DNA of 40,470 bases, taken from NCBI GenBank assembly GCA_965233585.1, contig CBDDTI010000449.1, forward strand, positions 1-40,470, read 5' to 3'. The translations under genes were made by a program, and so were the position numbers. Source of the stretch: a bacterium (GTDB lineage Bacteria > SAR324 > NAC60-12). This document shows, in pieces, positions 3,001 through 40,470 of this stretch. Each line of letters opens with the position of its first letter. The stretch's first letter is position 1. The notes beneath the pieces were generated by a model. That model was given only the letters and a program-made list of their open reading frames with translations. It searched no databases and was not told the origin of the DNA.

Positions 3001-6000
3001 AGCGCCACTCTATACCAGGCCTTCCAGACCTTCTCCGGAACCTTTTCTGGAACTTTATTAAGCCTGACCTGTTTGACGGTGCACCAAAGCTTTCGGAACC
3101 TTCGTCGAATTTTTCCCAAATCCATCCAAACCGTTAATATGCACAAGTTTTGTGTGTGATCGCGTCTGTGTGTGAAAGGATCGATGTGTATAAATTTCTG
3201 TCCGTCACAAAAAAGCCTCTAAAAGTGAATAGTCTTTGTGCGTAAAAGGGTTGTTTGTTGGCAAAAGAATGTGTGTGCGAAAGCGTTCTTGGTAAAACCG
3301 TCTGTGTGAAAAGGTTTCGGTGTCAAATTGTTTGTGTGCTGTTTGTGTGGCAGGAAATGTTTCGGATCTAACAGCGTCTGTGTGAAAAAGGTAGCGAAAA
3401 AGCGCGTGTACAGAAAAAACGTTTGTGTGTCAACGCTTCTCTGGAAACAACTTTGCGTGTCAATGCTTCCGTGTGCGAACGAAAATCAGCAAAGTATGTC
3501 CGTGTATGTGTGTAACATTGTTTGTGCAGAAAAAAGTGCTTGTGAATAAAAATTCCTGTTTTGAAATCAAAAATCAAAACCTTTGGTCTGGACAAGCCCA
3601 TGTGTGTACGGCAGAAGATTATGGAGGTAAAAAATTTGTGTGTCAAAGCATTTGTGTGCAAAAGTGTTTGCTTGCAACAGCGCCGGTAAATTTTTTTGGT
3701 GTGCAAATGCTTCTGTGCATAAAGGTTTGTGTGCAAAAAGGGCTCAGTGTAAAACTGTTCCATTGACAAGGTGCTGTTCACACAAAAATGCCTCTATAAC
3801 ACGGCCTCTGCGTATAAAACTGGCATAGTGTGTCATATGCGGTAGGAAAAGAATTTATCCATTCTTGGGCCATCTTCGAATAAGTTTTTTCGTTTGAAAA
3901 TTACTTTCAAAATGTTGACCTTTTCACGTTTTGTATTTAAGAAATATCCGTCGTAATTTTGTTCATTTGAATGGGGTGCCAGGAATAATAGATAAAAGGC
4001 AGGTATTTCACAATTTTGGAAAAAGTTACCAAGGACTTTTTTGAAGCACTTTTTAGTTTTTGAAAGCTGAGCGCGAAAACGATATATTTTCAGGCCATTG
4101 TAAATGTTCAAAAGGTGCCAAAAATGAAAACCTTATGAGAAAAAGTAAAAATCTAACCAAAAAAGGCATCACACACATCGCTTAAAACGACACGGCATTC
4201 CAGTACCAAACAAAAAAAATGTCGTTTCATCTTACCATAAAACACGAAAAAAAATTTTGGGCCCAGAAAAAAAAAACACAACTCATTTGCAACTGATGTG
4301 CAAACATTCCCATATACGCATTTTCTCTTCTTCGCGTATCTTACTATCTTCTTTGTTCTTCCAATCTTCAAACAAAAATTTTGTCATCTCAAACTTCCAC
4401 TCGTTCACATCTTCTAACCACCAAACCTTGACAATTTTATTTATATTCAAATCGTTTTCACCTGACATACTTACATCTTCACCTTTTTCTGTCCTCTCAC
4501 TCAAACATCTTTTTTTAATGATCAAGTCGTTACACCTCGAAAATTCTCTTCATTTCTTTTAACTGGAGCGGAGCAGCATATTTTTGGCACGAACTAACGT
4601 TCGATAAAAACTTGTGTCAAAAAAAATATTTTGTGCATCTTGACTGCTTGGCGCCAAAAATTTGAACCCTTCAAACTCATGCCAGACCCTGGCGTTTTGT
4701 TTTCCCTTGACCGTGTGAGTCTATATTGTTTGAAAAACACACTGTCCATGCTCATTCTTTGATCTCAGATGGTTGACTGTGTGAACAATCCTCCATATGT
4801 AGGTTCTACAAGTAACGGGGTTTTCACGCGCGGACTTTTTTGCAAATAACCTTGCGTCTTCGCGAAGAAGGCCTGGGTGGCGATTCCAATTTCATACAAG
4901 CTTTCACATAAAACGCTTTATTTCAAAGCATGAAAAATTTAGCATTTTATAAGATATTTTTGTTACACAAATGCTTTAACACAAAGAAGATTTCACTGTC
5001 AAACAAAAGCTGTTTGGAACCATACGTTTTCATAGGCAGATACTTTTACACAAACGATTTCACACACAAAAGCTTTTGCACACAGAAGCTTCAGAAGCTT
5101 TCAAAGACAGAAAATGCTCTTGAAGTTAGCGCCACTCTATACCAGGCCTTCCAGACCTTCTCCGGAACCTTTTCTGGAACTTTATTAAGCCTGACCTGTT
5201 TGACGGTGCACCAAAGCTTTCGGAACCTTCGTCGAATTTTTTCCCAAATCCATCCAAACCGTTAATATGCACAAGTTTTGTGTGTGATCGCGTCTGTGTG
5301 TGAAAGGATCGATGTGTATAAATTTCTGTCCGTCACAAAAAAGCCTCTAAAAGTGAATAGTCTTTGTGCGTAAAAGGGTTGTTTGTTGGCAAAAGAATGT
5401 GTGTGCGAAAGCGTTCTTGGTAAAACCGTCTGTGTGAAAAGGTTTCGGTGTCAAATTGTTTGTGTGCTGTTTGTGTGGCAGGAAATGTTTCGGATCTAAC
5501 AGCGTCTGTGTGAAAAAGGTAGCGAAAAAGCGCGTGTACAGAAAAAACGTTTGTGTGTCAACGCTTCTCTGGAAACAACTTTGCGTGTCAATGCTTCCGT
5601 GTGCGAACGAAAATCAGCAAAGTATGTCCGTGTATGTGTGTAACATTGTTTGTGCAGAAAAAAGTGCTTGTGAATAAAAATTCCTGTTTTGAAATCAAAA
5701 ATCAAAACCTTTGGTCTGGACAAGCCCATGTGTGTACGGCAGAAGATTATGGAGGTAAAAAATTTGTGTGTCAAAGCATTTGTGTGCAAAAGTGTTTGCT
5801 TGCAACAGCGCCGGTAAATTTTTTTGGTGTGCAAATGCTTCTGTGCATAAAGGTTTGTGTGCAAAAAGGGCTCAGTGTAAAACTGTTCCATTGACAAGGT
5901 GCTGTTCACACAAAAATGCCTCTATAACACGGCCTCTGCGTATAAAACTGGCATAGTGTGTCATATGCGGTAGGAAAAGAATTTATCCATTCTTGGGCCA

Positions 6001-9000
6001 TCTTCGAATAAGTTTTTTCGTTTGAAAATTACTTTCAAAATGTTGACCTTTTCACGTTTTGTATTTAAGAAATATCCGTCGTAATTTTGTTCATTTGAAT
6101 GGGGTGCCAGGAATAATAGATAAAAGGCAGGTATTTCACAATTTTGGAAAAAGTTACCAAGGACTTTTTTGAAGCACTTTTTAGTTTTTGAAAGCTGAGC
6201 GCGAAAACGATATATTTTCAGGCCATTGTAAATGTTCAAAAGGTGCCAAAAATGAAAACCTTATGAGAAAAAGTAAAAATCTAACCAAAAAAGGCATCAC
6301 ACACATCGCTTAAAACGACACGGCATTCCAGTACCAAACAAAAAAAATGTCGTTTCATCTTACCATAAAACACGAAAAAAAATTTTGGGCCCAGAAAAAA
6401 AAAACACAACTCATTTGCAACTGATGTGCAAACATTCCCATATACGCATTTTCTCTTCTTCGCGTATCTTACTATCTTCTTTGTTCTTCCAATCTTCAAA
6501 CAAAAATTTTGTCATCTCAAACTTTCACTCGTTCACATCTTCTAACCACCAAACCTTGACAATTTTATTTATATTCAAATCGTTTTCACCTGACATACTT
6601 ACATCTTCACCTTTTTCTGTCCTCTCACTCAAACATCTTTTTTTAATGATCAAGTCGTTACACCTCGAAAATTCTCTTCATTTCTTTTAACTGGAGCGGA
6701 GCAGCATATTTTTGGCACGAACTAACGTTCGATAAAAACTTGTGTCAAAAAAAATATTTTGTGCATCTTGACTGCTTGGCGCCAAAAATTTGAACCCTTC
6801 AAACTCATGCCAGACCCTGGCGTTTTGTTTTCCCTTGACCGTGTGAGTCTATATTGTTTGAAAAACACACTGTCCATGCTCATTCTTTGATCTCAGATGG
6901 TTGACTGTGTGAACAATCCTCCATATGTAGGTTCTACAAGTAACGGGGTTTTCACGCGCGGACTTTTTTGCAAATAACCTTGCGTCTTCGCGAAGAAGGC
7001 CTGGGTGGCGATTCCAATTTCATACAAGCTTTCACATAAAACGCTTTATTTCAAAGCATGAAAAATTTAGCATTTTATAAGATATTTTTGTTACACAAAG
7101 GCTTTAACACAAAGAAGATTTCACTGTCAAACAAAAGCTGTTTGGAACCATACGTTTTCATAGGCAGATACTTTTACACAAACGATTTCACACACAAAAG
7201 CTTTTGCACACAGAAGCTTCAGAAGCTTTCAAAGACAGAAAATGCTCTTGAAGTTAGCGCCACTCTATACCAGGCCTTCCAGACCTTCTCCGGAACCTTT
7301 TCTGGAACTTTATTAAGCCTGACCTGTTTGACGGTGCACCAAAGCTTTCGGAACCTTCGTCGAATTTTTTCCCAAATCCATCCAAACCGTTAATATGCAC
7401 AAGTTTTGTGTGTGATCGCGTCTGTGTGTGAAAGGATCGATGTGTATAAATTTCTGTCCGTCACAAAAAAGCCTCTAAAAGTGAATAGTCTTTGTGCGTA
7501 AAAGGGTTGTTTGTTGGCAAAAGAATGTGTGTGCGAAAGCGTTCTTGGTAAAACCGTCTGTGTGAAAAGGTTTCGGTGTCAAATTGTTTGTGTGCTGTTT
7601 GTGTGGCAGGAAATGTTTCGGATCTAACAGCGTCCGTGTGAAAAAGGTAGCGAAAAAGCGCGTGTACAGAAAAAACGTTTGTGTTTCAACGCTTCTCTGG
7701 AAACAACTTTGCGTGTCAATGCTTCCGTGTGCGAACGAAAATCAGCAAAGTATGTCCGTGTATGTGTGTAACATTGTTTGTGCAGAAAAAAGTGCTTGTG
7801 AATAAAAATTCCTGTTTTGAAATCAAAAATCAAAACCTTTGGTCTGGACAAGCCCATGTGTGTACGGCAGAAGATTATGGAGGTAAAAAATTTGTGTGTC
7901 AAAGCATTTGTGTGCAAAAGTGTTTGCTTGCAACAGCGCCGGTAATTTTTTTTGTGTGCAAATGCTTCTGTGCATAAAGGTTTGTGTGCAAAAAGGGCTC
8001 AGTGTAAAACTGTTCCATTGACAAGGTGCTGTTCACACAAAAATGCCTCTATAACACGGCCTCTGCGTATAAAACTGGCATAGTGTGTCATATGCGGTAG
8101 GAAAAGAATTTATCCATTCTTGGGCCATCTTCGAATAAGTTTTTTCGTTTGAAAATTACTTTCAAAATGTTGACCTTTTCACGTTTTGTATTTAAGAAAT
8201 ATCCGTCGTAATTTTGTTCATTTGAATGGGGTGCCAGGAATAATAGATAAAAGGCAGGTATTTCACAATTTTGGAAAAAGTTACCAAGGACTTTTTTGAA
8301 GCACTTTTTAGTTTTTGAAAGCTGAGCGCGAAAACGATATATTTTCAGGCCATTGTAAATGTTCAAAAGGTGCCAAAAATGAAAACCTTATGAGAAAAAG
8401 TAAAAATCTAACCAAAAAGGCATCACACACATCGCTTAAAACGACACGGCATTCCAGTACCAAACAAAAAAATGTCGTTTCATCTTACCATAAAACACGA
8501 AAAAAAATTTTGGGCCCAGAAAAAAAAACACAACTCATTTGCAACTGATGTGCAAACATTCCCATATACGCATTTTCTCTTCTTCGCGTATCTTACTATC
8601 TTCTTTGTTCTTCCAATCTTCAAACAAAAATTTTGTCATCTCAAACTTCCACTCGTTCACATCTTCTAACCACCAAACCCTGACAATTCTATTTATATTC
8701 AAATTGTTTTCACCTGACATTTTGTCCTCTCACTCAAACATCTTTTTCTTATGATCAAGTCGTTACACCTCAAAAATTCTCTTCATTTCTTTTAACTGGA
8801 GCGGAGCAGCATATTTTTGGCACGAACTAACGTTCGATAAAAACTTGTGTCAAAAAAAAATATTTTGTGCATCTTGACTGCTTGGCGCCAAAAATTTGAA
8901 CCCTTCAAACTGATGCCAGACCCTGGCATTTTGTCTTCCCTTGACCGTGTGAGTCTATATTGTTTGAAAAACACACTGTCCATGCTCATTCTTTGATCTC

Positions 9001-12000
9001 AGATGGTTGACTGTTTGAACATTCCTCCATATGTAGGTTCTACAAGTAACGGGGTTTTCACGCGCGGACTTTTTTGCAAATAACCTTGCGTCTTCGCGAA
9101 GAAGGCCTGGGTGGCGATTCCAATTTCATACAAGCTTTCACATAAAACGCTTTATTTCAAAACATGAAAAATTCAGCATTTTATAAGATATTTTTGTTAC
9201 ACAAATGCTTTAACACAAAGAAGATTTCACTGTCAAACAAAAGCTGTTTGGAACCATACGTTTTCATAGGCAGATACTTTTACACAAACGATTTCACACA
9301 CAAAAGCTTTTGCACACAGAAGCTTCAGAAGCTTTCAAAGACAGAAAATGATCTTGAAGTTAGCGCCACTCTATACCAGGCCTTCCAGACCTTCTCCGGA
9401 ACCTTTTCTGGAACTTTATTAAGCCTGACCTGTTTGACGGTGCACCAAAGCTTTCGGAACCTTCGTCGAATTTTTTCCCAAATCCATCCAAACCGTTAAT
9501 ATGCACAAGTTTTGTGTGTGATCGCGTCTGTGTGTGAAAGGATCGATGTGTATAAATTTCTGTCCGTCACAAAAAAGCCTCTAAAAGTGAATAGTCTTTG
9601 TGCGTAAAAGGGTTGTTTGTTGGCAAAAGAATGTGTGTGCGAAAGCGTTCTTGGTAAAACCGTCTGTGTGAAAAGGTTTCGGTGTCAAATTGTTTGTGTG
9701 CTGTTTGTGTGGCAGGAAATGTTTCGGATCTAACAGCGTCTGTGTGAAAAAGGTAGCGAAAAAGCGCGTGTACAGAAAAAACGTTTGTGTTTCAACGCTT
9801 CTCTGGAAACAACTTTGCGTGTCAATGCTTCCGTGTGCGAACGAAAATCAGCAAAGTATGTCCGTGTATGTGTGTAACATTGTTTGTGCAGAAAAAAGTG
9901 CTTGTGAATAAAAATTCCTGTTTTGAAATCAAAAATCAAAACCTTTGGTCTGGACAAGCCCATGTGTGTACGGCAGAAGATTATGGAGGTAAAAAATTTG
10001 TGTGTCAAAGCATTTGTGTGCAAAAGTGTTTGCTTGCAACAGCGCCGGTAATTTTTTTTTGTGTGCAAATGCTTCTGTGCATAAAGGTTTGTGTGCAAAA
10101 AGGGCTCAGTGTAAAACTGTTCCATTGACAAGGTGCTGTTCACACAAAAATGCCTCTATAACACGGCCTCTGCGTATAAAACTGGCATAGTGTGTCATAT
10201 GCGGTAGGAAAAGAATTTATCCATTCTTGGGCCATCTTCGAATAAGTTTTTTCGTTTGAAAATTACTTTCAAAATGTTGACCTTTTCACGTTTTGTATTT
10301 AAGAAATATCCGTCGTAATTTTGTTCATTTGAATGGGGTGCCAGGAATAATAGATAAAAGGCAGGTATTTCACAATTTTGGAAAAAGTTACCAAGGACTT
10401 TTTTGAAGCACTTTTTAGTTTTTGAAAGCTGAGCGCGAAAACGATATATTTTCAGGCCATTGTAAATGTTCAAAAGGTGCCAAAAATGAAAACCTTATGA
10501 GAAAAAGTAAAAATCTAACCAAAAAGGCATCACACACATCGCTTAAAACGACACGGCATTCCAGTACCAAACAAAAAAATGTCGTTTCATCTTACCATAA
10601 AACACGAAAAAAAATTTTGGGCCCAGAAAAAAAAACACAACTCATTTGCAACTGATGTGCAAACATTCCCATATACGCATTTTCTCTTCTTCGCGTATCT
10701 TACTATCTTCTTTGTTCTTCCAATCTTCAAACAAAAATTTTGTCATCTCAAACTTCCACTCGTTCACATCTTCTAACCACCAAACCCTGACAATTCTATT
10801 TATATTCAAATTGTTTTCACCTGACATTTTGTCCTCTCACTCAAACATCTTTTTCTTATGATCAAGTCGTTACACCTCAAAAATTCTCTTCATTTCTTTT
10901 AACTGGAGCGGAGCAGCATATTTTTGGCACGAACTAACGTTCGATAAAAACTTGTGTCAAAAAAAAATATTTTGTGCATCTTGACTGCTTGGCGCCAAAA
11001 ATTTGAACCCTTCAAACTGATGCCAGACCCTGGCATTTTGTCTTCCCTTGACCGTGTGAGTCTATATTGTTTGAAAAACACACTGTCCATGCTCATTCTT
11101 TGATCTCAGATGGTTGACTGTTTGAACATTCCTCCATATGTAGGTTCTACAAGTAACGGGGTTTTCACGCGCGGACTTTTTTGCAAATAACCTTGCGTCT
11201 TCGCGAAGAAGGCCTGGGTGGCGATTCCAATTTCATACAAGCTTTCACATAAAACGCTTTATTTCAAAACATGAAAAATTCAGCATTTTATAAGATATTT
11301 TTGTTACACAAATGCTTTAACACAAAGAAGATTTCACTGTCAAACAAAAGCTGTTTGGAACCATACGTTTTCATAGGCAGATACTTTTACACAAACGATT
11401 TCACACACAAAAGCTTTTGCACACAGAAGCTTCAGAAGCTTTCAAAGACAGAAAATGATCTTGAAGTTAGCGCCACTCTATACCAGGCCTTCCAGACCTT
11501 CTCCGGAACCTTTTCTGGAACTTTATTAAGCCTGACCTGTTTGACGGTGCACCAAAGCTTTCGGAACCTTCGTCGAATTTTTTCCCAAATCCATCCAAAC
11601 CGTTAATATGCACAAGTTTTGTGTGTGATCGCGTCTGTGTGTGAAAGGATCGATGTGTATAAATTTCTGTCCGTCACAAAAAAGCCTCTAAAAGTGAATA
11701 GTCTTTGTGCGTAAAAGGGTTGTTTGTTGGCAAAAGAATGTGTGTGCGAAAGCGTTCTTGGTAAAACCGTCTGTGTGAAAAGGTTTCGGTGTCAAATTGT
11801 TTGTGTGCTGTTTGTGTGGCAGGAAATGTTTCGGATCTAACAGCGTCCGTGTGAAAAAGGTAGCGAAAAAGCGCGTGTACAGAAAAAACGTTTGTGTGTC
11901 AACGCTTCTCTGGAAACAACTTTGCGTGTCAATGCTTCCGTGTGCGAACGAAAATCAGCAAAGTATGTCCGTGTATGTGTGTAACATTGTTTGTGCAGAA

Positions 12001-13731
12001 AAAAGTGCTTGTGAATAAAAATTCCTGTTTTGAAATCAAAAATCAAAACCTTTGGTCTGGACACACACGCCCATGTGTGTACGGCAGAAGATTATGGAGG
12101 TAAAAAATTTGTGTGTCAAAGCATTTGTGTGCAAAAGTGTTTGCTTGCAACAGCGCCGGTAAATTTTTTTGGTGTGCAAATGCTTCTGTGCATAAAGGTT
12201 TGTGTGCAAAAAGGGCTCAGTGTAAAACTGTTCCATTGACAAGGTGCTGTTCACACAAAAATGCCTCTATAACACGGCCTCTGCGTATAAAACTGGCATA
12301 GTGTGTCATATGCGGTAGGAAAAGAATTTATCCATTCTTGGGCCATCTTCGAATAAGTTTTTTTCCTTTGAAAATTACATTCAAAATGTTGACCTTTTCA
12401 CGTTTTGTATTTAAGAAATATCCGTCGTAATTTTGTTCATTTGAATGGGGTGCCAGGAATAATAGATAAAAGGCAGGTATTTCACAATTTTGGAAAAAGT
12501 TACCAAGGACTTTTTTGAAGCACTTTTTAGTTTTTGAAAGCTGAGCGCGAAAACGATATATTTTCAGGCCATTGTAAATGTTCAAAAGGTGCCAAAAATG
12601 AAAACCTTATGAGAAAAAGTAAAAATCTAACCAAAAAAGGCATCACACACATCGCTTAAAACGACACGGCATTCCAGTACCAAACAAAAAAAATGTCGTT
12701 TCATCTTACCATAAAACACGAAAAAAATTTTTGGGCCCAGAAAAAAAAACACAACTCATTTGCAACTGATGTGCAAACATTCCCATATACGCATTTTCTC
12801 TTCTTCGCGTATCTTACTATCTTCTTTGTTCTTCCAATCTTCAAACAAAAATTTTGTCATCTCAAACTTCCACTCGTTCACATCTTCTAACCACCAAACC
12901 CTGACAATTCTATTTATATTCAAATCGTTTTCACCTGACATACTTACATCTTCACCTTTTTTGCCCTCTCACTCAAACATCTTTTTTTAATGATCAAGTC
13001 GTTACACCTCAAAAATTCTCTTCATTTCTTTTAACTGGAGCGGAGCAGCATATTTTTGGCACGAACTAAAATTCGATAAAAACTTGTGTCAAAAAAAATA
13101 TTTTGTGCATCTTGACTGCTTGGCGCCAAAAATTTGAACCCTTCAAACTGATGCCAGACCCTGGCGTTTTGTTTTCCCTTGACCGTGTGAGTCTATATTG
13201 TTTGAAAAACACACTGTCCATGCTCATTCTTTGATCTCAGATGGTTGACTGTGTGAACATTCCTTCATATGTAGGTTCTACAAGTAACGGGGTTTTCACG
13301 CGCGGACTTTTTTGCAAATAACCTTGCGTCTTCGCGAAGAAGGCCTGGGTGGCGATTCCAATTTCATACAAGCTTTCACATAAAACGCTTTATTTCAAAA
13401 CATGAAAAATTCAGCATTTTATAAGATATTTTTGTTACACAAATGCTTTAACACAAAGAAGATTTCACTGTCAAACAAAAGCTGTTTGGAACCATACGTT
13501 TTCATACGCAGATACTTTTACACAAACGATTTCACACACAAAAGCTTTTGCACACAGAAGCTTCAGAAGCTTTCAAAGACAGAAAATGCTCTTGAAGTTA
13601 GCGCCACTCTATACCAGGCCTTCCAGACCTTCTCCGGAACCTTTTCTGGAACTTTATTAAGCCTGACCTGTTTGACGGTGCACCAAAGCTTTCGGAACCT
13701 TCGTCGAATTTTTTCCCAAATCCATCCAAAC
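1..13731. repeat. Tandem macrosatellite array of ~2.1-kb units (extends beyond the left window edge)
   Basis: Units begin at CGTTAATATGCAC at 1005, 3132, 5260, 7388, 9494 and 11601. The array exits to unique sequence after 13731 (TCCATCCAAAC|TTTGCG). Unit lengths are 2127, 2128, 2128, 2106, 2107 and 2131 bp; 1-1004 is a partial, shorter unit. Identical short ORFs recur with this period. Confidence 0.98.
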
Positions 13732-14099
13732 TTTGCGCCAAGCTAAAGACGGTGAAATAGATACATGGAATGGTTTCATTTTTCGGCTCTGATGAAGCAT
13801 TCGCATCATTTGCTGCACTGGAATCTGTCACTGTATTTTGGGTCTTCTTGGGCAAATTTTAGAACATTTCACGTTTGAGAAAGGAAAATTATGTTTTTGG
13901 TTGAAACCGTACAATTACTGTCCACTCGAGATTTTTGGGTGTTAGTGCCAAATACGGTTGAGGCGGTTTCTGTTCCTCGAGTTTGGAAAATACAGTTTCA
14001 AAAATTTATTTCTGGGCATGTCAATTGCAGGTTGCAGTTTTGTCGAAAAAAATTGTTTTATTGGTCGTGTGCAGCGAATAGACTTGCTTGCTCAAAGAA

Positions 14100-33078: not shown

Positions 33079-33375
33079 CTGGTGCCTAGAAGGTGCCCTA
33101 ATTCATAGCTGGTAATAGCTGGATGTTTAAATTCCCCCAGTCATGTGGTAATGGGCCAACGACCCATCCCCATTTCTCCCAATTTCTACCAGCTTTTTGT
33201 TGGAAGTGTTGGACTTTTTTCCGAACCAAAAGATTGTTGAAATACTAAACAGTGGCGTCATCCAAATCTGGTGTCATTTGAGCAGTATTCGAAACCTTCT
33301 GTCGTCCCTTTTCCGTTTCCATCCCGCCGAGTCTTCGCAAACTGGTGAAACGCAGAGTTGCGACGGCAAAGATGG

Positions 33376-35715
33376 TTAGTGCAACTTCCCCTTGAAGTCG
33401 TCGAGGTGCCGGAGGGCTTGAACTGTTTTAACACCGCTGGCTCCGCTTGCCCGCAGGAGGCCATCGACCCTTCCAAAAACCTCAGGGCTCGTTCTGACAA
33501 GAAGGCATCTCTGCCAGCTACGGAAAACTCCTCCTGCTGGCATATTTGGCCTCACAGTGAGAGGCAAGTCCAAGGTCTTGGCAAAGCACTTCAGAGCGGC
33601 CATTATCCATGCAGAAAAACGTACAAAATCAAATCCCTCAGTTATCGCATGGTGATCAGCTGAGAGCCAGACTTTGTTCTTTCGATCATACATGAGTCCG
33701 TATTGCCCCATAGTGCCCTGAAAGTGGACTAGGAGCTGGTAACTGCAGAGCCAAAGTGGTATACAGTCGGTGCCCTGCTGAAGCAGTGTGACCCATTGAA
33801 ACATTGTCTGCAGTGTATCCCCCATTGTGTGTTGGTCAGGTATAACAAGTGCATCTGGTAGCGGAGCCAGGCTCACTGTTTCACTGACCTCACTGGGTTG
33901 TTCTGCAACCTGAGCCCATGCTGTGTCGTCTTGGCGACTTAAGGCATCCTTGGCTTGCACGCACTTCCGAGCATTGCAGACAAACATGGTATGCAATTCA
34001 AAACATGCCTTTTTACGTTGAGTCCACATTGATTCTGCTTGGTGAAGAACGTGCTTAAGCGGCTGCGGCAGGTTCTGTTGGACGGTTTCTGCCATCCTGT
34101 CCACAAAATCATTTCCCTGAATGACCCACTGATCGATCGGGTGATCGTACTTTGTCCTATCCAAGTGGGACACAACTTTAACCACTTTCTGAAAAAGGCC
34201 CCTGGACATGGTCTGTTTAACCAGAGAAAAAAGCTGCATCCAAAGATCATGGTCATTCTGCTTACGACGCGGCGGAATTGCACGATCTTGTTGGTACTGA
34301 CAGAGTCGCTTGTAGACAGTATCGTTATCCGTCCAAACATAAAACTTCCTACGGTGTGCAAGGGCAAAACGGAAAGCAACAATGGCGGCTGTGGCTTCAG
34401 CTCTAAGGGCTGTTTGGTACATTCCTGACAAAACTGCACTTGCTACCGGAGCAAAGTCACCTTCATTCAATGTGGCAATGGCCACTCCCCATGATGCAAC
34501 CCGCAGCCTGGGCACTGTCGGGTTTCGGCAGCTTCCATCTACGAATAGGTGGGCTGTCTCTACTTCGCAAGGTGTGGCAAACTGACATGTGTTGTGATGT
34601 GGCATGGTGTGCAAGACCCTACGCAGGTGTTCATCGCATGCATGCTCAACAAACCATCCATGGAGTTGGGTACACTCAGGTTGCGCAGCAACATATGTAC
34701 GCGTGGTGTCTGATAGCTGCCATCTGGTTTCTGAGAAAGCTGGGCATTCCCATGCTCGATGATAAACTGAGTCCTGGGCACTGCACCATGGGCAATCCTT
34801 GGATGGAATCTTGCCTGCATGAATCTGCTTATTTCTCGTATAAAAAGTACCGTTCATACTGGTGCGCAAAAGCCCAAGGTCTTCTAAACTCATGGCGTCC
34901 TGGGTGGACCTGGACAACTCTCCATCAACTTGGCCGAGCCCTGCAAACTCCTGCCTGGATTGCATGAGACATCCAACGGTCTTTTCCCATGCCTGCATCA
35001 GTCTTTTCCGCAAGAGCTGGATTGGGCTATCGATCAGGTGAAGAGTGCAGTGTTCATGATCCAAGAGAAATCCATCTTGTGCCCACTGCCACTGTATTTC
35101 ATGCAACCTAGCCAGGAAAACTCCACACGGGCCAGGGTTGTAATGTCGAGGTGGGCAACTTGTGAGGGCATTGAGCAATGGGAAAGCAACCTCAGGTATG
35201 CAAAAATTCCGGAATGAAGAGACCGTCTCAATCAGAGTATACAAACCAGGGTCTTGCTTGGGGGAAAGGAGGCCAAACTGGATAGTGGCTGATGCCCCTT
35301 TCTTGTTCCATCGAAGGGCAGCCATAGCCTGGGCTCTCATACGGGAGAAATGTTCAGTGGCTAAAGCTACTCCGGCAATGCCGTGGAGGCATCGTGGCCA
35401 AGCGACTGCTGCTATGGCTCGAAGTTTCTGCTGTTGCGGTGCTGTACTCCTGGAAAGTAAGCTCCAAAACTCCTTGGTTTTTTCAATTCTGGTGCGTGAC
35501 ACTTGATTAGTAAATTTCCTAGTGTAATTCAACTGTCCTCCCAAGTCCTTGGCTGAGAAAACAACGGAGTACTGCTGATTTCGGAGAAATTTACGATCTT
35601 CACTGGTGGTTGCCCAGAAATGGGTTTTGGCACGATCTAATTGCAAGTCAACGCTGAGGGCAAATTCTTCCATCATGCAATATACCCTACATGTTGTGTG
35701 AGCGCAAGATGACAC
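33376..35715 (-). CDS. LINE ORF2 C-terminal part: RT thumb, CCHC zinc knuckle, RNase H
   Basis: RT C-terminal motifs LDRAKT and KDLG; zinc knuckle CPWCSAQDSVYHRAWEC; RNase H catalytic motifs LFVDGS, RAEA, VWTDN, KVVSH and GNDFVD. It continues the upstream frame via a 1-nt frameshift at ~35720. Confidence 0.92.
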   Translation of the reverse strand: MSSCAHTTCRVYCMMEEFALSVDLQLDRAKTHFWATTSEDRKFLRNQQYSVVFSAKDLGGQLNYTRKFTNQVSRTRIEKTKEFWSLLSRSTAPQQQKLRAIAAVAWPRCLHGIAGVALATEHFSRMRAQAMAALRWNKKGASATIQFGLLSPKQDPGLYTLIETVSSFRNFCIPEVAFPLLNALTSCPPRHYNPGPCGVFLARLHEIQWQWAQDGFLLDHEHCTLHLIDSPIQLLRKRLMQAWEKTVGCLMQSRQEFAGLGQVDGELSRSTQDAMSLEDLGLLRTSMNGTFYTRNKQIHAGKIPSKDCPWCSAQDSVYHRAWECPAFSETRWQLSDTTRTYVAAQPECTQLHGWFVEHACDEHLRRVLHTMPHHNTCQFATPCEVETAHLFVDGSCRNPTVPRLRVASWGVAIATLNEGDFAPVASAVLSGMYQTALRAEATAAIVAFRFALAHRRKFYVWTDNDTVYKRLCQYQQDRAIPPRRKQNDHDLWMQLFSLVKQTMSRGLFQKVVKVVSHLDRTKYDHPIDQWVIQGNDFVDRMAETVQQNLPQPLKHVLHQAESMWTQRKKACFELHTMFVCNARKCVQAKDALSRQDDTAWAQVAEQPSEVSETVSLAPLPDALVIPDQHTMGDTLQTMFQWVTLLQQGTDCIPLWLCSYQLLVHFQGTMGQYGLMYDRKNKVWLSADHHAITEGFDFVRFSAWIMAALKCFAKTLDLPLTVRPNMPAGGVFRSWQRCLLVRTSPEVFGRVDGLLRASGASGVKTVQALRHLDDFKGKLH

Positions 35716-37420
35716 TACCTCCAGTTGTCTACAAAACTCAAAACCTGAGCAGGCTGGTTAGAGGCTTCAAGGATTTTGTGCATCGCAATGTTCAACAGCG
35801 ACATGGCCACAACCGAGAGTGGGTCACCCTCTGGGTACCCCGTGGAGCTGAACATGGCTGGGGACACTGCACCAGATACCACAAAAGATCTCTGTACCCT
35901 TGCCACTGCATTATGCCAGGTCCGGATCAGGGCAAGTGGGAGACCAAAATGTCGGGCACATGCATAGATAGCAGGTCGAGCAAGGTTGTTGAAACACTTC
36001 TTGATGTCAGTGACGATACCTGTCAAGGCTTCATTGGTGTTACTAGCTGCTTCAATTGCTTGGGAAACATGCCACCACATGTTGGCTGTGGAGCAATTTG
36101 GCCGGTTGCCTACCAATCCAGGAGGTGACTGGCTGTCCAACCATTTGAGGGCTTGTTTGGCACGGATGGACGCCCACACCCGATATGGGAGCGGTAGCAC
36201 TGTTATTGGCCTGAACTCTTGAGGAGAACATGCGTCTGGGACCTTCTCAACTGACGTGATGTGTCCCTGAAGTGCCTCCTGGGGCCAATCTGCTTGGCCA
36301 GTGTCGTACTCATTGACCAATTGGACCAACCTATCGGTCAGCAGGGCTGGCATCCTCAAAAGATCTAGTCTAGACACTCCATCTGGACCAGTGGCTGTGA
36401 TGGATTTTTTGTTCTGGACTGTCTGCATCCATTGATCGGTGGTTATGGGCGGTAAAGGCATGGTGTCGGAAGCTCCCTCAGTGTGGGTGAGCAGGTTAAC
36501 AACAAAACCGTCCCAGTGCCCCACTGGAGTGTCCTCGTGTTTTTGCCACATGGGTTTCCACAAGGCCTCGAAGGCTGCAAAAATGTCAGGCAAATCTGCT
36601 TGCATTTTTTGTTGTGACAACAAATCACCTACCTCCACGTGGCCTGGATCGGTGAGCACTAACTCGCCTGGAGTGTGGGCTATGTCGATGAGTGGCACAG
36701 TGGCGGCTTCCACAGGGAAATCACATGCCAAATGGGCAGGCTGGTATTGAATGGTTTTTCCCTCGTTGAGAATAGCTGTCACTGTGGCATGAACCTGTGT
36801 TACCACAGACTGCACTGGCATGGCTCGTGGTCTTGCTACATCTTTGAAGATCACATTGGGGTCTTGGACCCTTCTGCTTTTGGCTTGTTCCCGCCTGGTG
36901 CGGTTCAACACATTGGTCAGGGCTTGATACTGCTGTTGAAAGGTGTGAAAGACTGCACTGGCTACATCATAACCCGGGGGCTTGTGAGGCAGGCTGGCAG
37001 GGCTATGCTCATGGTGTGGAAAATCCCTCCATGCTCGTGGAAAACCCCCGGGAAAACCGGGTGCTGCTCGGATGCAATGCCAAAGGTCAGTCTTGTGTTG
37101 CTGGGTCTGGGCATGGCCCTTCTGGCTCTTGGTGACGGCTACATAACTTTGGATCCTATGGAGCTGCCTAATCCACTGCGTGTGTTGCCAGTGCTCCCCA
37201 AGGAAAAGGACCTGGCATTCATGCTTCCGTGAAGGCCTCACTGGTGTGATCGGGTGGTGCAACCATTTGGGAACTTGGGTCTGGCATCGTCCCTTCTGAT
37301 TGGGCATCAGGCCGGGGTGGTGCTTGGCCCGAAGTGCCTGGTCCGCACACTGCTCAAGCTGTTGAAAAACCTGGTGATATGTACTGGCCGGGCATGGGTC
37401 TGTCATTACTTGGTCAGGGG
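35715..37420 (-). CDS. LINE ORF2 middle part: linker and reverse transcriptase core
   Basis: Motifs TATGPDGV, FRPITVLP, DIKKCFN, GYPEGDPLS and SFVDN in canonical non-LTR RT order. Confidence 0.93.
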
Positions 37421-38329
37421 GATATCCTCCCATTGAATGGCCTGTGGTTTCCTCCAAATGGGGACTGGCTGAAAAGATCCCAAGTCTTGAAAAGTTGCAT
37501 AAACTATGGCATGATCCGCAAAGAAGTTGGAATCCACACATACTGATTGCAACCTACCTATCAACTCAGGGCTGATCCAGACATGGTCTTTTACGCTAGT
37601 GTTTTTACATGTCATGGCGATAGGCTGGTGCCATTTATGCAATGCAATCTCTTGGACTTCTCGGAATCCATGTGCTCGCCAAATGTCGAACTGTGGCAAA
37701 TCCCCTGTCAGGGCATTGAAGTCCCCTGTTATGGCCCGAAAACCCTTTGATTGGAGGACTATGCGCTCTGTGATGTGGCTGAGCAGGGCATCTGTTTTGT
37801 CCTTAGTGGCCTTAGTATGAGCATCTCGTGCGTAGCCATAAAAGGCTCCTACTTTAATCCACTGCTGCTGGACATGTACTGCTGCTGTTTGGATGCGCCC
37901 TGTTTTCCATGCTTGATCATTCCATTGGCCTGGGAGTGGTCTGGTGGGGCAATTGGTTAGTACGCCCACTCCAGTAGCTTTGCCTCCAATGGCAGCTGCA
38001 GATGTGCCGATCAGGGGAGCTGATGCGCTAGGGACAAATTTCCATGAGTCAGGTTGATACTTGGCTTCTTGTTGGAACTTGATGATACCTGGAGCTGACA
38101 AGTGCGTTTCGGCCAATCCCCAGATCCTGGGGTGGCCTTTGCCAGGGGTGTCTTGGAACAAATGTGCCTTCCCAAGAGCTCCGCAAGGGTTGGCTGTCCC
38201 AATGATGAACGGTCCTGATTTGCTGCCTCTCCTACTCTGGCAAAAATCATCAAAATGATGAACTTGAGAAAAGCAAATGTACCAAGTCCATTGCAAAACT
38301 GCCGCTTGGGTGCCTGTGTACTTCGACAT
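37406..38329 (-). CDS. LINE ORF2 N-terminal part: AP-endonuclease-like (EEP) domain
   Basis: EEP motifs GTANPCG, GLAETH, GVGVL, TGDFN, DHVWIS and FADHAIV. The true start is uncertain because of a probable frameshift at ~38218. Confidence 0.9.
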   Translation of the reverse strand: MSKYTGTQAAVLQWTWYICFSQVHHFDDFCQSRRGSKSGPFIIGTANPCGALGKAHLFQDTPGKGHPRIWGLAETHLSAPGIIKFQQEAKYQPDSWKFVPSASAPLIGTSAAAIGGKATGVGVLTNCPTRPLPGQWNDQAWKTGRIQTAAVHVQQQWIKVGAFYGYARDAHTKATKDKTDALLSHITERIVLQSKGFRAITGDFNALTGDLPQFDIWRAHGFREVQEIALHKWHQPIAMTCKNTSVKDHVWISPELIGRLQSVCVDSNFFADHAIVYATFQDLGSFQPVPIWRKPQAIQWEDIPLTK

Positions 38330-38451
38330 GGTCTATCCTGTGTGGGCTTATGGCATGTGATTGGTGGCTGTACATCGGACGAATGAAAAATTCGGGCCTC
38401 ATTGGTATGGGTGGGCGTTGACTCAGCAAAATGCTGGGTCCGCCCTGGGAG

Positions 38452-40468
38452 TCATTCTGTTCTGGATTTCTTGGAAAACAGACGCTCAATATGGTTGAGC
38501 TGCTCCTGCATCTTGGAATCGATATGGCTGTGGATGGCATTGGTTTGCCTCTCCACTTGCGTTTGGACAGCGGTGATCTGGCTTGCCAACTGCCCTGTGA
38601 TCTGAGCTTGCTGTTCATGTTGGTCCTTCCTTGATGGTGGTCTCCATCTTGGCGACTCTCTCCTCCAGGGCAGTGACTCGATCGTCCCCCATGGTGACAT
38701 CGTTGTCGGAAGTTCCTGGCAGGATGGGCTTGGTTTCTCGCATCTTCTTGGCTACTCTGGCTGTGATGACATTAAGATGTTCTTCTCTGATGCCGTTTGA
38801 CTGGGCAGGCTTGCTCACTGTACCCTGGAAATTACCCCATGGGTCATTATCCTGCAGAAAATCAACCTCTTGGTTTGGCACCGCCGGCTTGGAGAGTGCT
38901 GCAATTGTTTTGACGGAGCCCTGCACCTGGTGGGCAATGTGAGTGGGCTTCTGTTTTTTCGGCACCTCAGAAATCAACACGTCAGCATGGGATAACTGAT
39001 ACACCTCGTATTGCGGTCTGGGTGCCGCCTGAATTTCCCACACAACCCCCCGTCCGTCTGGTGTTCTATGCCGTGGTTGGCTTGGGCGGGCTTGCCATCC
39101 CCATGTTGCAAATAACTTCAGTAATGCGGCCCGATTTGACCCGTGTGGAAATGGGCCTGCATGGAAAGTCAAGATCTCGCTGGAGGCCAGGTATGGTGTT
39201 GATGGCTTGTGTTGTGTGTGCACAGCTTGTGCTTCTGAGGCTTTGACTCGGAGGCCGAACCTGTTGCCTGACCTGACCACCACATTCCATTGGGCTGTGG
39301 ACTGGGACGCCAGCAGAACTGCCTGTCGGTCTTGCTTGTTGATCCAAATGACTCGAAACTCCTCATGATGAGACCGGCCATCGTAGCTTCTGGGTTCAAC
39401 ATAGTGGGCTATGGTGCCATGGTGCTGCAAGAGGTCATACCAATCTGCAATTTCAAGCCTGAAACAGGCGGAGAACATGTTCGCATCTGCTGGCTTCATC
39501 CTCTCAAGCTTGTCATTTAACCACTGTCGGTCCCAGATGTCAATGATTGGGCTGTTGCCTTGGACCTTCTGCAGTGCAGGCATGTCATCAACAATGGCTT
39601 TGATGGGTTTGGAACAGAAGGATGCCCATCCCATGTCGGTCAGCTTGTCTCGATAGACTACAACTCGAACGACTTCTGTGCTAACCTCATCAACGACTGT
39701 GGCTTGAGCGGGGGTGAGGCGGCAGACTTCAATTGCTCCGATCTGGATGATCCTGGCCGTGATCAGGATTGGCTCATTGGTCTTTTCGCATCTTGCAGGG
39801 AATCGGATTTCTTCCCCCGATCCATGGATCAGCGGGCTTTGGTAGTCCACGACGATGAGGGCGAGGCCGTGTTTGGACACTGGTTGGGAGAACCTGAGGT
39901 AGGGTACAGCCTGATCGGCCTGTACTACCACCAGTCCCCGTGCTTCAGGGCCAATGCTTGCCAGTGGTATCTGCTTCATCTGTGTGCTTGAGGCATCTCG
40001 GAAAATTCCTTCTGGGATGGCTATGTCAGTGGCAGAGATGTTGACACTTCTCCTGGGTTCCTTGTTGGCTTTCTGTTTGTTCTTTTTGTCGCCAAACTTG
40101 CCTGACTCTGTCCTTGCTTGGATGGCGGCTTGCATTTCACTTGGCAGGACTAGCTGAAGCTTAGGAGTGGCTAAGTTGGCCAATTGCTTGATCTCCTTCC
40201 ATGGGTTGGTAGTTCTGAGTGCTTTGGCAATCGGTTGGCGACCAAGCTTCTCCAGTACAGCTGTGGCCCTGGCTGATGCTTCCTCAGTGGGAACTCCTCT
40301 GTTGTGCAAGGGTGCTTCAAGTTGTTCAGTCAACTCATGATGGGACACTCCTCCGAAGGCAATGGATGCTGGGGGCACAACAGACTGGATGGTATCCCGT
40401 GTTCGCAAGGCATGCTCAAAAATGCTCCTCCATGTGATGGCATTTTCTACCGTGAGTGGTGCTACCGT
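38452..40468 (-). CDS. LINE ORF1 (5'-incomplete; frameshifted near 38630), ending in a coiled coil
   Basis: The 597-aa frame stays open to the window edge (TVAPLTVENAITWRSIFEHALRTRD...). The C-terminal heptad-like DRVTALEERVAKMETTIK continues in another frame as DQHEQQAQITGQLASQITAVQTQVERQ...LFSKKSRTE*. It lies directly upstream of the endonuclease. Confidence 0.85.
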
Positions 40469-40470
40469 CT

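What the first reader, a model, noticed from the sequence alone, without database searches (positions are those of the whole stretch)
35724..36010. Non-canonical reverse transcriptase active site: FVDN, PEG and KCFN
Seen: the catalytic motif reads FVDN (35735-35724) rather than Y/FxDD, the upstream motif GYPEGDPLS rather than G.PQG..LSP, and DIKKCFN rather than D..KAFD. All other domains, including RNase H catalytic residues, are intact with no internal stops. Established: both Asp of YxDD and the Q of PQG are near-invariant in non-LTR RTs. Inference: the acid/amide swaps (Q>E, D>N, D>N) look coordinated and may define an active RT clade with a rewired catalytic site rather than decay. I recall similar motifs in other Symbiodiniaceae LINEs but cannot verify that here.
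Basis: partly seen in the sequence, partly recalled or inferred. Interest (0 to 1): 0.7.

Follow-up and report, generated by a model that had tools for sequence, protein, structure and literature searches.

The report
LINE reverse transcriptase with rewired site
The odd catalytic motifs are real and are kept by selection across a very large family of jumping genes found in coral-associated DNA, where the "missing" acidic residue of the copying enzyme changes hand in hand with acidic residues at two other positions of the same domain, although the copy in this window is itself broken.

Summary
The three motifs are at the stated coordinates on the minus strand: DIKKCFN, GYPEGDPLS and FVDN. The claim of "no internal stops" is wrong. 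A TAG follows FVDNW-R, and the frame continues only after a one-base shift. At least two more one-base deletions break this copy.

The substitutions are not private. Among 155 homologues, 151 have N after K[AC][FY], 150 have E in motif B, and motif C reads D-N in 120 and D-D in 26. Six distant relatives read FD / LLQG / FADD.

DN-type copies keep open frames of 1,500-2,065 codons and show dN/dS 0.06-0.14.

- **Family-wide changes:** E (motif B) and N (motif A) are fixed and do not vary with D/N.
- **Coupled positions:** D/N covaries with the residue two places on (Q with DD; E or a small residue with DN). It also covaries with the primer-grip residue before LG (N/S with DD; D or E with DN). 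These three pairs rank 1, 2 and 5 of 67,896 column pairs.
- **Tree:** neither DD nor DN forms one clade (AU p about 0.001).
- **RNA:** contigs from RNA libraries keep AAC, so they give no sign of editing.

Best reading: a LINE family whose reverse transcriptase is probably active, with a relocated carboxylate. Enzyme activity is untested.

The parts
38615..40468 (-). ORF1-like open frame (617 codons, runs off the window end); no Pfam family
38218..38238 (-). R-V-G-E-A-A-N of a 2A-like R[IVLF]GEAx[NH]PGP motif just before the endonuclease. In this copy the PGP part is lost to a one-base deletion; another copy has a base put in behind 38216.
   Evidence: P0001 reads MIFARVGEAANPGPF
37406..38332 (-). 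APE-type endonuclease part (GLAETHL 38119-38099, GDFN 37726-37715, FADHA 37522-37508). Its frame differs from the RT frame; other copies have a base put in behind 37416.
   Evidence: Pfam Exo_endo_phos appears only in full-length relatives and below its cut-off (P0040 E 2.9e-5, 24.4 against 24.5 bits; L002 E 1.9e-4). There is no hit on the window's own frame.
35715..37553 (-). RT, N-terminal part up to motif C, ending FVDNWR-TAG
   Evidence: RVT_1 E 6.6e-10
35988..36011 (-). RT motif A, T-D-I-K-K-C-F-N. Catalytic Asp codon at 36008-36006; Asn (AAC 35990-35988) in place of the Asp of KAFD.
35814..35840 (-). RT motif B, G-Y-P-E-G-D-P-L-S. Glu (GAG 35831-35829) in place of the Gln of QG.
35724..35735 (-). 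RT motif C, F-V-D-N. Asn (AAC 35726-35724) in place of the second Asp of YxDD.
35715..35723 (-). Break point. The run TGG-AGG-TAG lacks one G compared with copies that read W-E-V-V. The Glu codon at motif C +2 (GAG 35721-35719 in the next frame) is the codon that is split.
   Evidence: X15 contig has a base put in behind 35720; P0026 and P0029 read FVDNWEVVSS
33376..35757 (-). RT C-terminal part (motif D LQLDRAKT 35646-35623), thumb, CX2CX10HX4C knuckle (34794-34744), RNase H and C-terminal region, in a frame shifted by one base
35533..35550 (-). RT motif E (primer grip), K-D-L-G-G-Q. Asp (GAC 35547-35545) where R2 proteins have the Tyr of YLG. This is the third member of the covarying triad.
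34078..34590 (-). RNase H domain (LFVDGS, LRAEAT, VWTDND, GNDFVDRMA)
   Evidence: (PF00075 E 4.7e-6, 27.3 bits, cut-off 25.8)
33311..33375 (-). Short 3' untranslated tail with no poly(A). A near-identical copy in run X15 leaves the window sequence at 33310.

Best explanation
The window holds one broken copy of a very large family of endonuclease + RT + RNase H non-LTR retrotransposons (LINEs). The family is abundant in coral-associated DNA and probably belongs to the dinoflagellate symbionts.

In the whole family the RT has Asn for the Asp of the motif A box KAFD and Glu for the Gln of motif B. By register with HIV-1 RT these are F116 and Q151, neighbours in the pocket around the 3'-OH of the incoming dNTP. 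I read this as a polarity-swapped acid/amide pair.

Within the family the second residue of the YxDD box exists in two states that have interchanged several times:
- D-D with Gln two residues on and a neutral residue (mostly N/S) before the LG of the primer grip.
- D-N with Glu two residues on plus Asp in the primer grip, or with a small residue two on plus Glu in the primer grip.

I propose that DN-type enzymes are working reverse transcriptases. In them the job of the second Asp passes to the Glu/Asp that appears beside it. In human L1 that Asp sits next to the primer 3' end, and a simulation proposes it as the proton acceptor.

Shown: conservation, purifying selection, repeated switching and covariation. 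Inferred: the spatial contact, the catalytic role and enzyme activity.
For: 1. Motifs read directly and aligned to solved R2 proteins: FN opposite FD, EG opposite QG, VDn opposite ADD, +2 e opposite V, dLG opposite YLG.

2. Family-wide conservation in 155 homologues, leaving out 8 near-identical sequences and 6 outgroup sequences. The motif A catalytic D is present in 155 of 155. N follows K[AC][FY] in 151. E is in motif B in 150 (4 gapped, 1 misaligned). The first D of motif C is present in 149 (6 gapped). The second position is N in 120, D in 26, T in 1, S in 1 and gapped in 7. The full library search gave 453 cluster representatives at E<=1e-30. Six distant relatives read KCFD and FADD (one FADG); five of them read LLQG and one LLKG.

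3. Both Asn codons are used in 76 metagenome loci (AAC 27, AAT 12; GAT 18, GAC 13). Open frames of at least 1,500 codons occur in 13 of 39 DN loci and 17 of 31 DD loci.

4. Purifying selection. L006/L007 (both DN) give dN 0.015, dS 0.239, ratio 0.063 over 1,186 codons. The other DN pairs with a finite dS give ratios of 0.07-0.14.

5. Repeated switching. The trees need 6 changes of the D/N label, and well-supported branches force 3-4. AU tests reject DD as one clade (p 0.0007) and DN as one clade (p 0.0012).

6. Covariation.
- DD has Q at +2 in 23 of 24 proteins and 31 of 31 loci.
- DN has E at +2 in 100 of 121 proteins and 22 of 39 loci.
- DN has D or E before LG in 102 of 103 proteins and 31 of 33 loci where the motif was found.
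- DD has D or E before LG in 5 of 23 proteins and 1 of 30 loci.
- When DN lacks E at +2, the primer-grip residue is Glu in 15 of 19 proteins and 10 of 12 loci.
- APC-corrected mutual information over 190 sequences ranks the three pairs 1, 2 and 5 of 67,896.

7. Fold. The AlphaFold model of an intact DN-type RT (L002) has pLDDT 92.7. The best fold matches are human L1 ORF2p (8c8j, E 4e-19) and R2. DSSP puts N369 and E371 on the same strand, two residues apart.

8. Literature passages read.
- L1 Asp703 lies by the primer 3' end and is proposed as proton acceptor by QM/MM (PMC12428982).
- The HIV-1 RT 3' pocket is D113, A114, Y115, F116 and Q151. Y188 and W229 both line the NNRTI pocket (PMC2850067).
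- YVDN is a lineage trait of nematode BEL/Pao elements (PMC554778, PMC9094657).

9. Contigs of RNA libraries cover the element. One of them (X15) is in frame across FVDNWE.
Against: No enzyme assay exists.

The review passage in PMC554778 states that mutating either Asp of YXDD inactivates HIV-1 and MoMLV RT.

No distance between N369, E371, D429 and the catalytic Asp residues was measured. The contact rests on register with HIV-1 RT and on covariation.

The test on phylogenetically independent pairs found only 2-3 pairs on well-supported branches. None went the opposite way, but significance cannot be reached. Mutual information does not remove shared ancestry.

Proteins and loci overlap in origin, so their counts are not independent. 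The locus scan selected on the motif B pattern, so E in motif B is by construction in that set.

By register with HIV-1, Y188 and W229 face a pocket beneath the hairpin rather than the metals. The new acids may therefore be structural.

The window copy itself cannot make a full RT.

RNA-library contigs may contain DNA and hide rare variants.
Confidence: 0.6

Rival explanations
1. DN-type RTs are active but simply work with two carboxylates (motif A Asp and the first motif C Asp). I recall, but did not check here, that polymerases with GDN (non-segmented negative-strand RNA viruses) or ADN (birnaviruses) in motif C do this. On this reading the covarying Glu/Asp only rebalance charge or packing under the hairpin and take no part in chemistry.
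For: The catalytic Asp of motif A and the first Asp of motif C are invariant. YVDN is also a lineage trait of nematode BEL/Pao elements. By register with HIV-1 RT the two partner positions are Y188 and W229, which line a pocket beside, not in, the active site. The size-for-size exchange (E at +2 with D in the grip, against a small residue at +2 with E in the grip) looks like packing compensation.
Against: DN almost always goes with an acid in the primer grip (102 of 103 proteins, 31 of 33 loci). That is more specific than packing alone would require. In L1 the second Asp lies at the primer 3' end and is proposed as proton acceptor, so its loss should need a substitute.
Confidence: 0.22
2. The DN-type RT domain is dead as a polymerase but is kept for another job, such as RNA binding, RNP assembly or regulation. 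These elements are then copied in trans by DD-type relatives, or they are domesticated host genes.
For: Mutation of either Asp inactivates retroviral RTs (review passage in PMC554778). DD-type relatives with long open frames were found in the same set of 76 metagenome loci.
Against: DN is the majority state: 120 against 26 cluster representatives. DN forms deep clades of its own. The columns that never vary in the window clade's alignment are nearly all in RT motifs A, B and C. Selection acts on the whole ORF2 with endonuclease and RNase H. Hundreds of diverged lineages with ORF1 and a 2A-like leader look like autonomous elements, not host genes.
Confidence: 0.1
3. A-to-I editing of the RNA turns AAC into a codon read as Asp, so the protein is canonical.
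For: None found.
Against: Contigs of RNA libraries X15 (33310-36783) and X17 (35497-35922) show no change at 35726-35724, 35831-35829 or 35990-35988. If Asn were edited back to Asp there would be no reason for Q/E and N/D to covary with it at the DNA level. Contigs cannot exclude rare editing.
Confidence: 0.03
4. The motifs are private inactivating mutations of a decaying copy.
For: This copy has at least three frame-breaking one-base deletions. Two of the three codon changes (GAC to AAC after a C) are of the CpG-to-CpA type, and CpG is depleted in the element (observed/expected 0.46).
Against: Relatives at 35-60% identity carry the same residues, encoded by both Asn codons, in long open frames under purifying selection.
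Confidence: 0.01

Closest known systems
APE-type non-LTR retrotransposons; solved relatives are human LINE-1 ORF2p (8c8j, 8uw3, 9hdo) and R2 proteins (8gh6, 9nl2, 9dou)
   Same: Domain order is endonuclease, RT, zinc knuckle, RNase H, with an upstream ORF1. The RT fold matches best to L1 ORF2p and R2 (Foldseek E 4e-19; profile E 4e-32 to 2e-24). The motif register is the same.
   Different: N for the D of KAFD, E for the Q of QG, VDN (or VDD-x-Q) for [FY]ADD, and D/E/N/S for the aromatic residue of the YLG primer grip. Which named LINE clade it belongs to was not tested, because no LINE reference library was at hand.
Nematode BEL/Pao (Belpaoviridae) LTR elements with YVDN: the Cer7-Cer12 series and Atlas virus
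   Same: A whole lineage of retroelements has Asn in place of the second Asp of YxDD. Its activity is likewise untested (PMC554778 and PMC9094657, passages read).
   Different: A different class of element (LTR, integrase-dependent) in animals. No covarying partner residues are mentioned in the passages I read. Here both states coexist and interchange within one non-LTR family.
Polymerases with Asn in motif C: GDN of non-segmented negative-strand RNA viruses, ADN of birnaviruses (recalled, not checked here)
   Same: Right-hand polymerases that work with D-N in motif C.
   Different: They are RNA-dependent RNA polymerases and only distantly related. The comparison is by analogy alone.
HIV-1 RT Q151M complex (Q151M followed by A62V, V75I, F77L and F116Y)
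   Same: Residues at the Q151 and F116 positions change together. This fits a coupled change of motif B Q-to-E and motif A D-to-N here (PMC2850067 passages).
   Different: Those are drug-selected changes in a retrovirus, not a natural family trait, and the residues involved are different.

Membership tests
APE-type non-LTR retrotransposon (LINE) | RT domain with the non-LTR/group II type fold and motif order | tested here: met
   RVT_1 E 6.6e-10. AlphaFold model with pLDDT 92.7. Top Foldseek hits are L1 ORF2p and R2. Profile hits to R2 (E 4e-32) and L1 ORF2p (E 2e-24).
APE-type non-LTR retrotransposon (LINE) | N-terminal apurinic/apyrimidinic-type endonuclease | tested here: inconclusive
   No Pfam hit on the window's own frame. 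Full-length relatives hit Exo_endo_phos just under the cut-off (P0040 24.4 against 24.5 bits, E 2.9e-5; L002 E 1.9e-4). The strings GLAETHL, GDFN and FADHA lie in this frame; taking them for APE-type endonuclease motifs is my recall.
APE-type non-LTR retrotransposon (LINE) | Canonical catalytic boxes D..KAFD, QG..LS and [FY]xDD | tested here: not met
   The window reads KCFN, PEG and FVDN. Family-wide: N in 151 of 155, E in 150 of 155, DN in 120 and DD in 26.
APE-type non-LTR retrotransposon (LINE) | Multiple dispersed copies with 3' ends at a fixed point and differing flanks (target-primed insertion) | tested here: inconclusive
   There is one copy in the held assembly. A >99% alike copy in X15 leaves the window sequence at 33310. 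The protein cluster has 51 members on several contigs. Target-site duplications could not be looked for because the 5' end is off the window.
RNase H-bearing LINE | RNase H domain downstream of the RT | tested here: met
   PF00075 E 4.7e-6, above its cut-off, on 34078-34590. Also found in P0042 (E 1.8e-7), and in P0040 just under the cut-off (25.5 against 25.8 bits).
Lineages with Asn at the second position of YxDD (as in nematode BEL/Pao) | Asn conserved across a diverged lineage rather than in single copies | tested here: met
   120 of 148 scorable cluster representatives. 39 of 71 loci, with both Asn codons in use.
Symbiodiniaceae (host attribution) | Sequence lies in a dinoflagellate genome | tested here: inconclusive
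   16 public runs hold at least half of the stretch's sampled words. They carry eight organism labels and the labels 'metagenome' and 'coral metagenome', and the RNA runs are coral metatranscriptomes. Two relatives come from EukProt. Flanks of relatives average 47% G+C. No spliced-leader relic was found in the window. The held assembly also contains animal-like Polinton DNA according to earlier notes.

The most novel reading that the evidence does not exclude
A large, probably still mobile LINE family has moved the function of the second catalytic Asp of the RT YxDD box onto a Glu/Asp supplied by the next-but-one residue or by the primer grip. It has switched back and forth between the two active-site designs (DD-Q-N and DN-E-D / DN-small-E) several times. 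That would be a natural series of compensated active-site variants. It would show which carboxylate an RT really needs and where that carboxylate may sit.
Probability: 0.4. Interest if true: 0.8.

Novelty: new variant of a known kind. Interest (0 to 1): 0.68.

Why it matters
The YxDD box is treated as the hallmark of a working reverse transcriptase. Copies lacking the second Asp are often scored as dead in annotation and in activity predictions. Here hundreds of diverged lineages keep D-N under strong selection, with a clear rule for what must change alongside it.

If the enzymes are active, three things follow:
- A large share of LINE load in coral symbionts has been mis-scored.
- The role of the second Asp (metal ligand or proton acceptor) can be tested with natural, matched DD and DN enzymes.
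- The same rule can be checked in the nematode YVDN elements.

It also offers variant RT scaffolds with an acidic dNTP 3'-pocket, which might differ in metal use, fidelity or nucleotide choice.

Tried and rejected
- **Spliced-leader relic.** A search for a dinoflagellate spliced-leader relic in the window found nothing. It says little about the host either way.
- **Protein atlas.** It gave only generic RT clusters and no usable taxa.
- **Earlier findings.** The searches by words and by sequence returned nothing. The search by genome returned only Polinton notes.
- **Independent pairs test.** Only 2-3 usable pairs, so there is no power.
- **Model coordinates.** The coordinates of the predicted model are not placed in the script box, so no active-site distances could be measured.
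- **Oversized input.** The first structure input was too large. I rebuilt it as a trimmed alignment (A4) and it then ran.
- **Sequence search for RNase H in the PDB.** No hit; Pfam did match.
- **Pfam on other frames.** No meaningful hit on ORF1, the window's endonuclease frame or two ORFs elsewhere in the window.
- **dN/dS for most pairs.** Synonymous sites are saturated, so only one pair (L006/L007) gives a well-measured ratio.
- **Literature.** The searches found no paper describing D-N or E-G motifs in a non-LTR or dinoflagellate RT. This covers only the open-access library. Repbase-type reports and subscription journals were not searchable.
- **CpG decay as the origin of the two AAC codons.** I considered it and rejected it as an explanation for the family, though it may be how the changes first arose.
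Full report
**Observation.** On the minus strand the window reads T-D-I-K-K-C-F-N (36011-35988), G-Y-P-E-G-D-P-L-S (35840-35814) and F-V-D-N (35735-35724). The frame that holds them matches Pfam RVT_1 (E 6.6e-10). Sequence and profile alignments to solved R2 retrotransposon proteins confirm the positions. N lies opposite the D of KAFD, and E opposite the Q of QGDP[LM]S. The N of VDN lies opposite the second D of ADD.

The statement that everything else is intact is not correct. The RT frame stops two codons after FVDN (FVDNWR-TAG). The rest of the RT, a zinc knuckle and RNase H continue in a frame shifted by one base (33376-35757). The endonuclease part (37406-38332) and the start of ORF2 are in yet other frames.

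**The copy in the window.** The element lies on the minus strand from about 33311 to beyond the window end. Its parts, in order, are:
- an ORF1-like frame;
- a 2A-like motif;
- the endonuclease;
- the RT;
- a zinc knuckle;
- RNase H (Pfam RNase_H E 4.7e-6 when scanned alone);
- a short tail without poly(A).

The window is a whole contig of a 12-Mb assembly filed as prokaryotic, and this is the element's only copy there.

Twenty of 24 listed public runs hold the stretch or a part of it, 16 of them at least half of its sampled words. They come from 13 studies. The holders carry eight coded organism labels or the labels 'metagenome' and 'coral metagenome'. The six RNA runs are coral metatranscriptomes.

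I laid contigs of three RNA libraries and one other run on the element.
- An RNA-library contig of X15 (33310-36783) carries one extra base behind 35720. This restores W-E-V-V after FVDN.
- X1 and X16 carry an extra base behind 37416.
- X15 carries one behind 38216.
- X17 carries one behind 35612.

Fifteen of the 51 members of the 90% identity cluster were listed. Six end at FVDNWR, two read FVDNWEVVSS, and seven do not cover the site.

So the frameshift after FVDNW is a real variant carried by some copies. It is not a property of the family. None of the contigs that cover them shows a change at the AAC, GAG and AAC codons. That gives no support to RNA editing, but contigs cannot exclude rare variants and RNA libraries can contain DNA.

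**Family conservation.** A word-indexed search found 19 relatives. Of the 12 closest non-identical ones:
- 10, at 48-62% identity, read K[AC][FY]N, PEG and [FY]VDN;
- 2, at 41-42% identity, read KCFN, PEG and VDD.

Six distant relatives (22-27% identity) read KCFD, LLQG (one LLKG) and FADD (one FADG).

An exhaustive HMMER search of 1.84 billion cluster representatives found 3,761 hits at E<=0.001 and 453 at E<=1e-30. The best 150 were returned. I tallied 155 homologues, leaving out 8 near-identical sequences and the 6 outgroup sequences:

| Position | Result (of 155) |
|---|---|
| Motif A catalytic Asp | present in 155 |
| Motif A, residue after K[AC][FY] | Asn in 151 |
| Motif B | Glu in 150 (4 gapped, 1 misaligned) |
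| Motif C, first Asp | present in 149 (6 gapped) |
| Motif C, second position | N 120, D 26, T 1, S 1, gapped 7 |

A scan of metagenome contigs gave 76 loci. It selected on the motif B pattern, so E is by construction in that set. Among these loci motif C is DN in 39, DD in 31 and DS in 1, and it was not found in 5. The codons are AAC 27, AAT 12, GAT 18, GAC 13 and AGT 1.

Uninterrupted frames of at least 1,500 codons occur in 13 of 39 DN loci and 17 of 31 DD loci. Full-length relatives show Exo_endo_phos (just under its cut-off), RVT_1 and RNase_H.

**Selection.** I computed Nei-Gojobori estimates on aligned open frames. For the two DN-type loci L006 and L007, dN is 0.015, dS is 0.239 and the ratio is 0.063 over 1,186 codons. 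In the other DN pairs with a finite dS (1.9-3.0, near saturation) the ratio is 0.07-0.14. Many pairs were too saturated to score. In the alignment of the window clade, the columns that never vary are nearly all in RT motifs A, B and C. The private-decay reading is refuted.

**D/N switching.** Motif C's own columns were left out of every tree.
- A FastTree tree of 156 sequences needs 6 changes of the D/N label, and well-supported branches force at least 4.
- An IQ-TREE tree of 86 sequences also needs 6, with at least 3 forced.
- AU tests reject a tree with all 25 ingroup DD sequences held together (log-likelihood 124.9 lower, p 0.0007). They also reject one with all 56 DN sequences held together (138.0 lower, p 0.0012).

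The window's copy sits in an all-DN clade of 31 (support 100). Its sister is a nine-row clade with eight DD rows, among them P0011 and P0012, and one row that could not be scored. The direction of change cannot be told, because basal ingroup clades are DN while the outgroup is DD.

**What covaries.** E (motif B) and N (motif A) are constant across DN and DD members. A column scan and a full tally showed two other partners. One is the residue two places after the D/N position, called +2 here. The other is the residue just before the LG of motif E, the primer grip.

| Motif C state | Residue at +2 | D or E before LG (where the motif was found) |
|---|---|---|
| DD | Q in 23 of 24 proteins (the other is N) and 31 of 31 loci | 5 of 23 proteins, 1 of 30 loci |
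| DN | E in 100 of 121 proteins and 22 of 39 loci | 102 of 103 proteins, 31 of 33 loci |

When a DN sequence has no Glu at +2, it has a small or other residue there. The primer-grip residue is then Glu in 15 of 19 proteins and 10 of 12 loci.

Three architectures result:
- VDN-x-E with D-LGG, which is the window's type;
- VDN-x-small with E-LGG;
- VDD-W-Q with N/S-LG.

APC-corrected mutual information over 190 sequences (effective number 174) ranks the pairs among 67,896. Pair (D/N, +2) is 1st, pair (+2, grip) is 2nd and pair (D/N, grip) is 5th.

Caveats:
- The paired test on independent branches had only 2-3 usable pairs. None went the wrong way, but it has no power.
- Proteins and loci partly overlap in origin.
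- Mutual information does not remove shared ancestry, although all pairs share the same tree.

In R2 proteins the +2 position is Val and the grip residue is the Tyr of YLG. In the six outgroup sequences they are Thr or Ala at +2 and, in five of six, Leu before LG.

**Structure and mechanism.** An AlphaFold model of the RT region of an intact DN-type relative (L002, 54% identical to the window's RT) has mean pLDDT 92.7 and pTM 0.89. Its best fold matches are human LINE-1 ORF2p (8c8j, E 4e-19, TM 0.59) and R2. In the model the motif C hairpin turns at V367-D368. N369 and E371 lie two apart on the second strand, so their side chains should face the same way. D429 ends the first strand of the primer-grip hairpin. 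I could not obtain coordinates, so no distances were measured.

From passages read:
- In L1 ORF2p, Asp600 and Asp702 bind the Mg2+. Asp703 lies nearer the primer 3' end, and a QM/MM study proposes it as the proton acceptor (PMC12428982).
- In HIV-1 RT the pocket around the dNTP 3'-OH is lined by D113, A114, Y115, F116 and Q151. Y188 and W229 both line the NNRTI pocket next to the active site (PMC2850067).

By motif register, which is my inference, the positions correspond as follows:

| Position in this family | HIV-1 RT residue |
|---|---|
| Motif A N | F116 |
| Motif B E | Q151 |
| Motif C +2 | Y188 |
| Primer-grip residue before LG | W229 |

Each covarying or co-fixed pair therefore consists of spatial neighbours. 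I conclude two things.
- The family-wide D-to-N and Q-to-E changes are most simply a polarity swap within one acid/amide pair.
- Loss of the second Asp in DN types is compensated by a carboxylate at +2 or in the primer grip. That carboxylate may take over the Asp's role at the primer 3'-OH.

A weaker version is that DN enzymes run on two carboxylates and the new acids only rebalance the hairpin. A dead RT kept for another role, and RNA editing, are less likely for the reasons given under the rival explanations.

**What is known.** YVDN in place of YxDD is described as a lineage trait of nematode BEL/Pao elements. Its effect on activity was stated to be untested (PMC554778 and PMC9094657, passages). 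Six full-text searches found no report of D-N, E-G or F-N motifs in a non-LTR or dinoflagellate RT. The library covers only open-access papers and preprints. I therefore rate this a new variant of a known kind. The element type and fold are ordinary. The active-site make-up, the toggling between two states and the covarying triad appear to be undescribed.

**Host.** Coral-associated runs, two EukProt relatives and flank G+C near 47% fit a dinoflagellate symbiont. The same assembly also holds animal-like Polinton DNA according to earlier notes, and no dinoflagellate-specific mark was found in the window. The host attribution stays an inference.

Noticed in passing
window 38218-38238 (minus); relatives L002-L062: A conserved R[IVLF]GEAx[NH]PGP motif, like a 2A 'ribosome-skipping' peptide, sits just before the endonuclease. 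It is present in 29 of 31 loci that have enough upstream frame, and in many full-length proteins. Many copies read HPGP rather than NPGP. Comparable 2A sequences in other non-LTR elements are known to me only from recall.
   Followed up: partly
window 35612, 35720, 37416, 38216: Near-identical copies differ by single-base length changes in short G or C runs, in several combinations across DNA and RNA libraries. The window copy lacks a base at three of these sites.
   Followed up: partly
window 1-13400: Seven tandem copies of a unit of about 2.1 kb (96-100% alike), at 37-38% G+C and without long open frames.
   Followed up: no
window 13478-16400 and 18229-19674: Long A+T-rich arrays with 16-base periodicity (ACACAGAAGCTTTT-like units) and arrays of 8-10-base periods. 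G+C falls to 26% at 14-16 kb.
   Followed up: no
whole window / G000: The contig has almost no long open frames outside the LINE (5 ORFs of 150 codons or more in 33 kb). It is clearly eukaryotic, yet it lies in an assembly filed as a prokaryote genome (12.0 Mb, 747 contigs, 92% 'complete'). Earlier notes report many Polinton/Maverick copies in the same assembly.
   Followed up: partly
window 33376-40470: CpG is depleted in the element (observed/expected 0.46), with an excess of TpG and CpA (1.47). This is consistent with cytosine methylation of the element.
   Followed up: no
G000 contig C293:2544-3197: A second, unrelated RT-like stretch in the same assembly (23% identity to the window's RT, E 1.6e-8).
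   Followed up: no
window 33310: A copy more than 99% alike in run X15 diverges from the window exactly here, about 65 bases after the stop codon. This marks the element's 3' end and indicates a second insertion site.
   Followed up: partly
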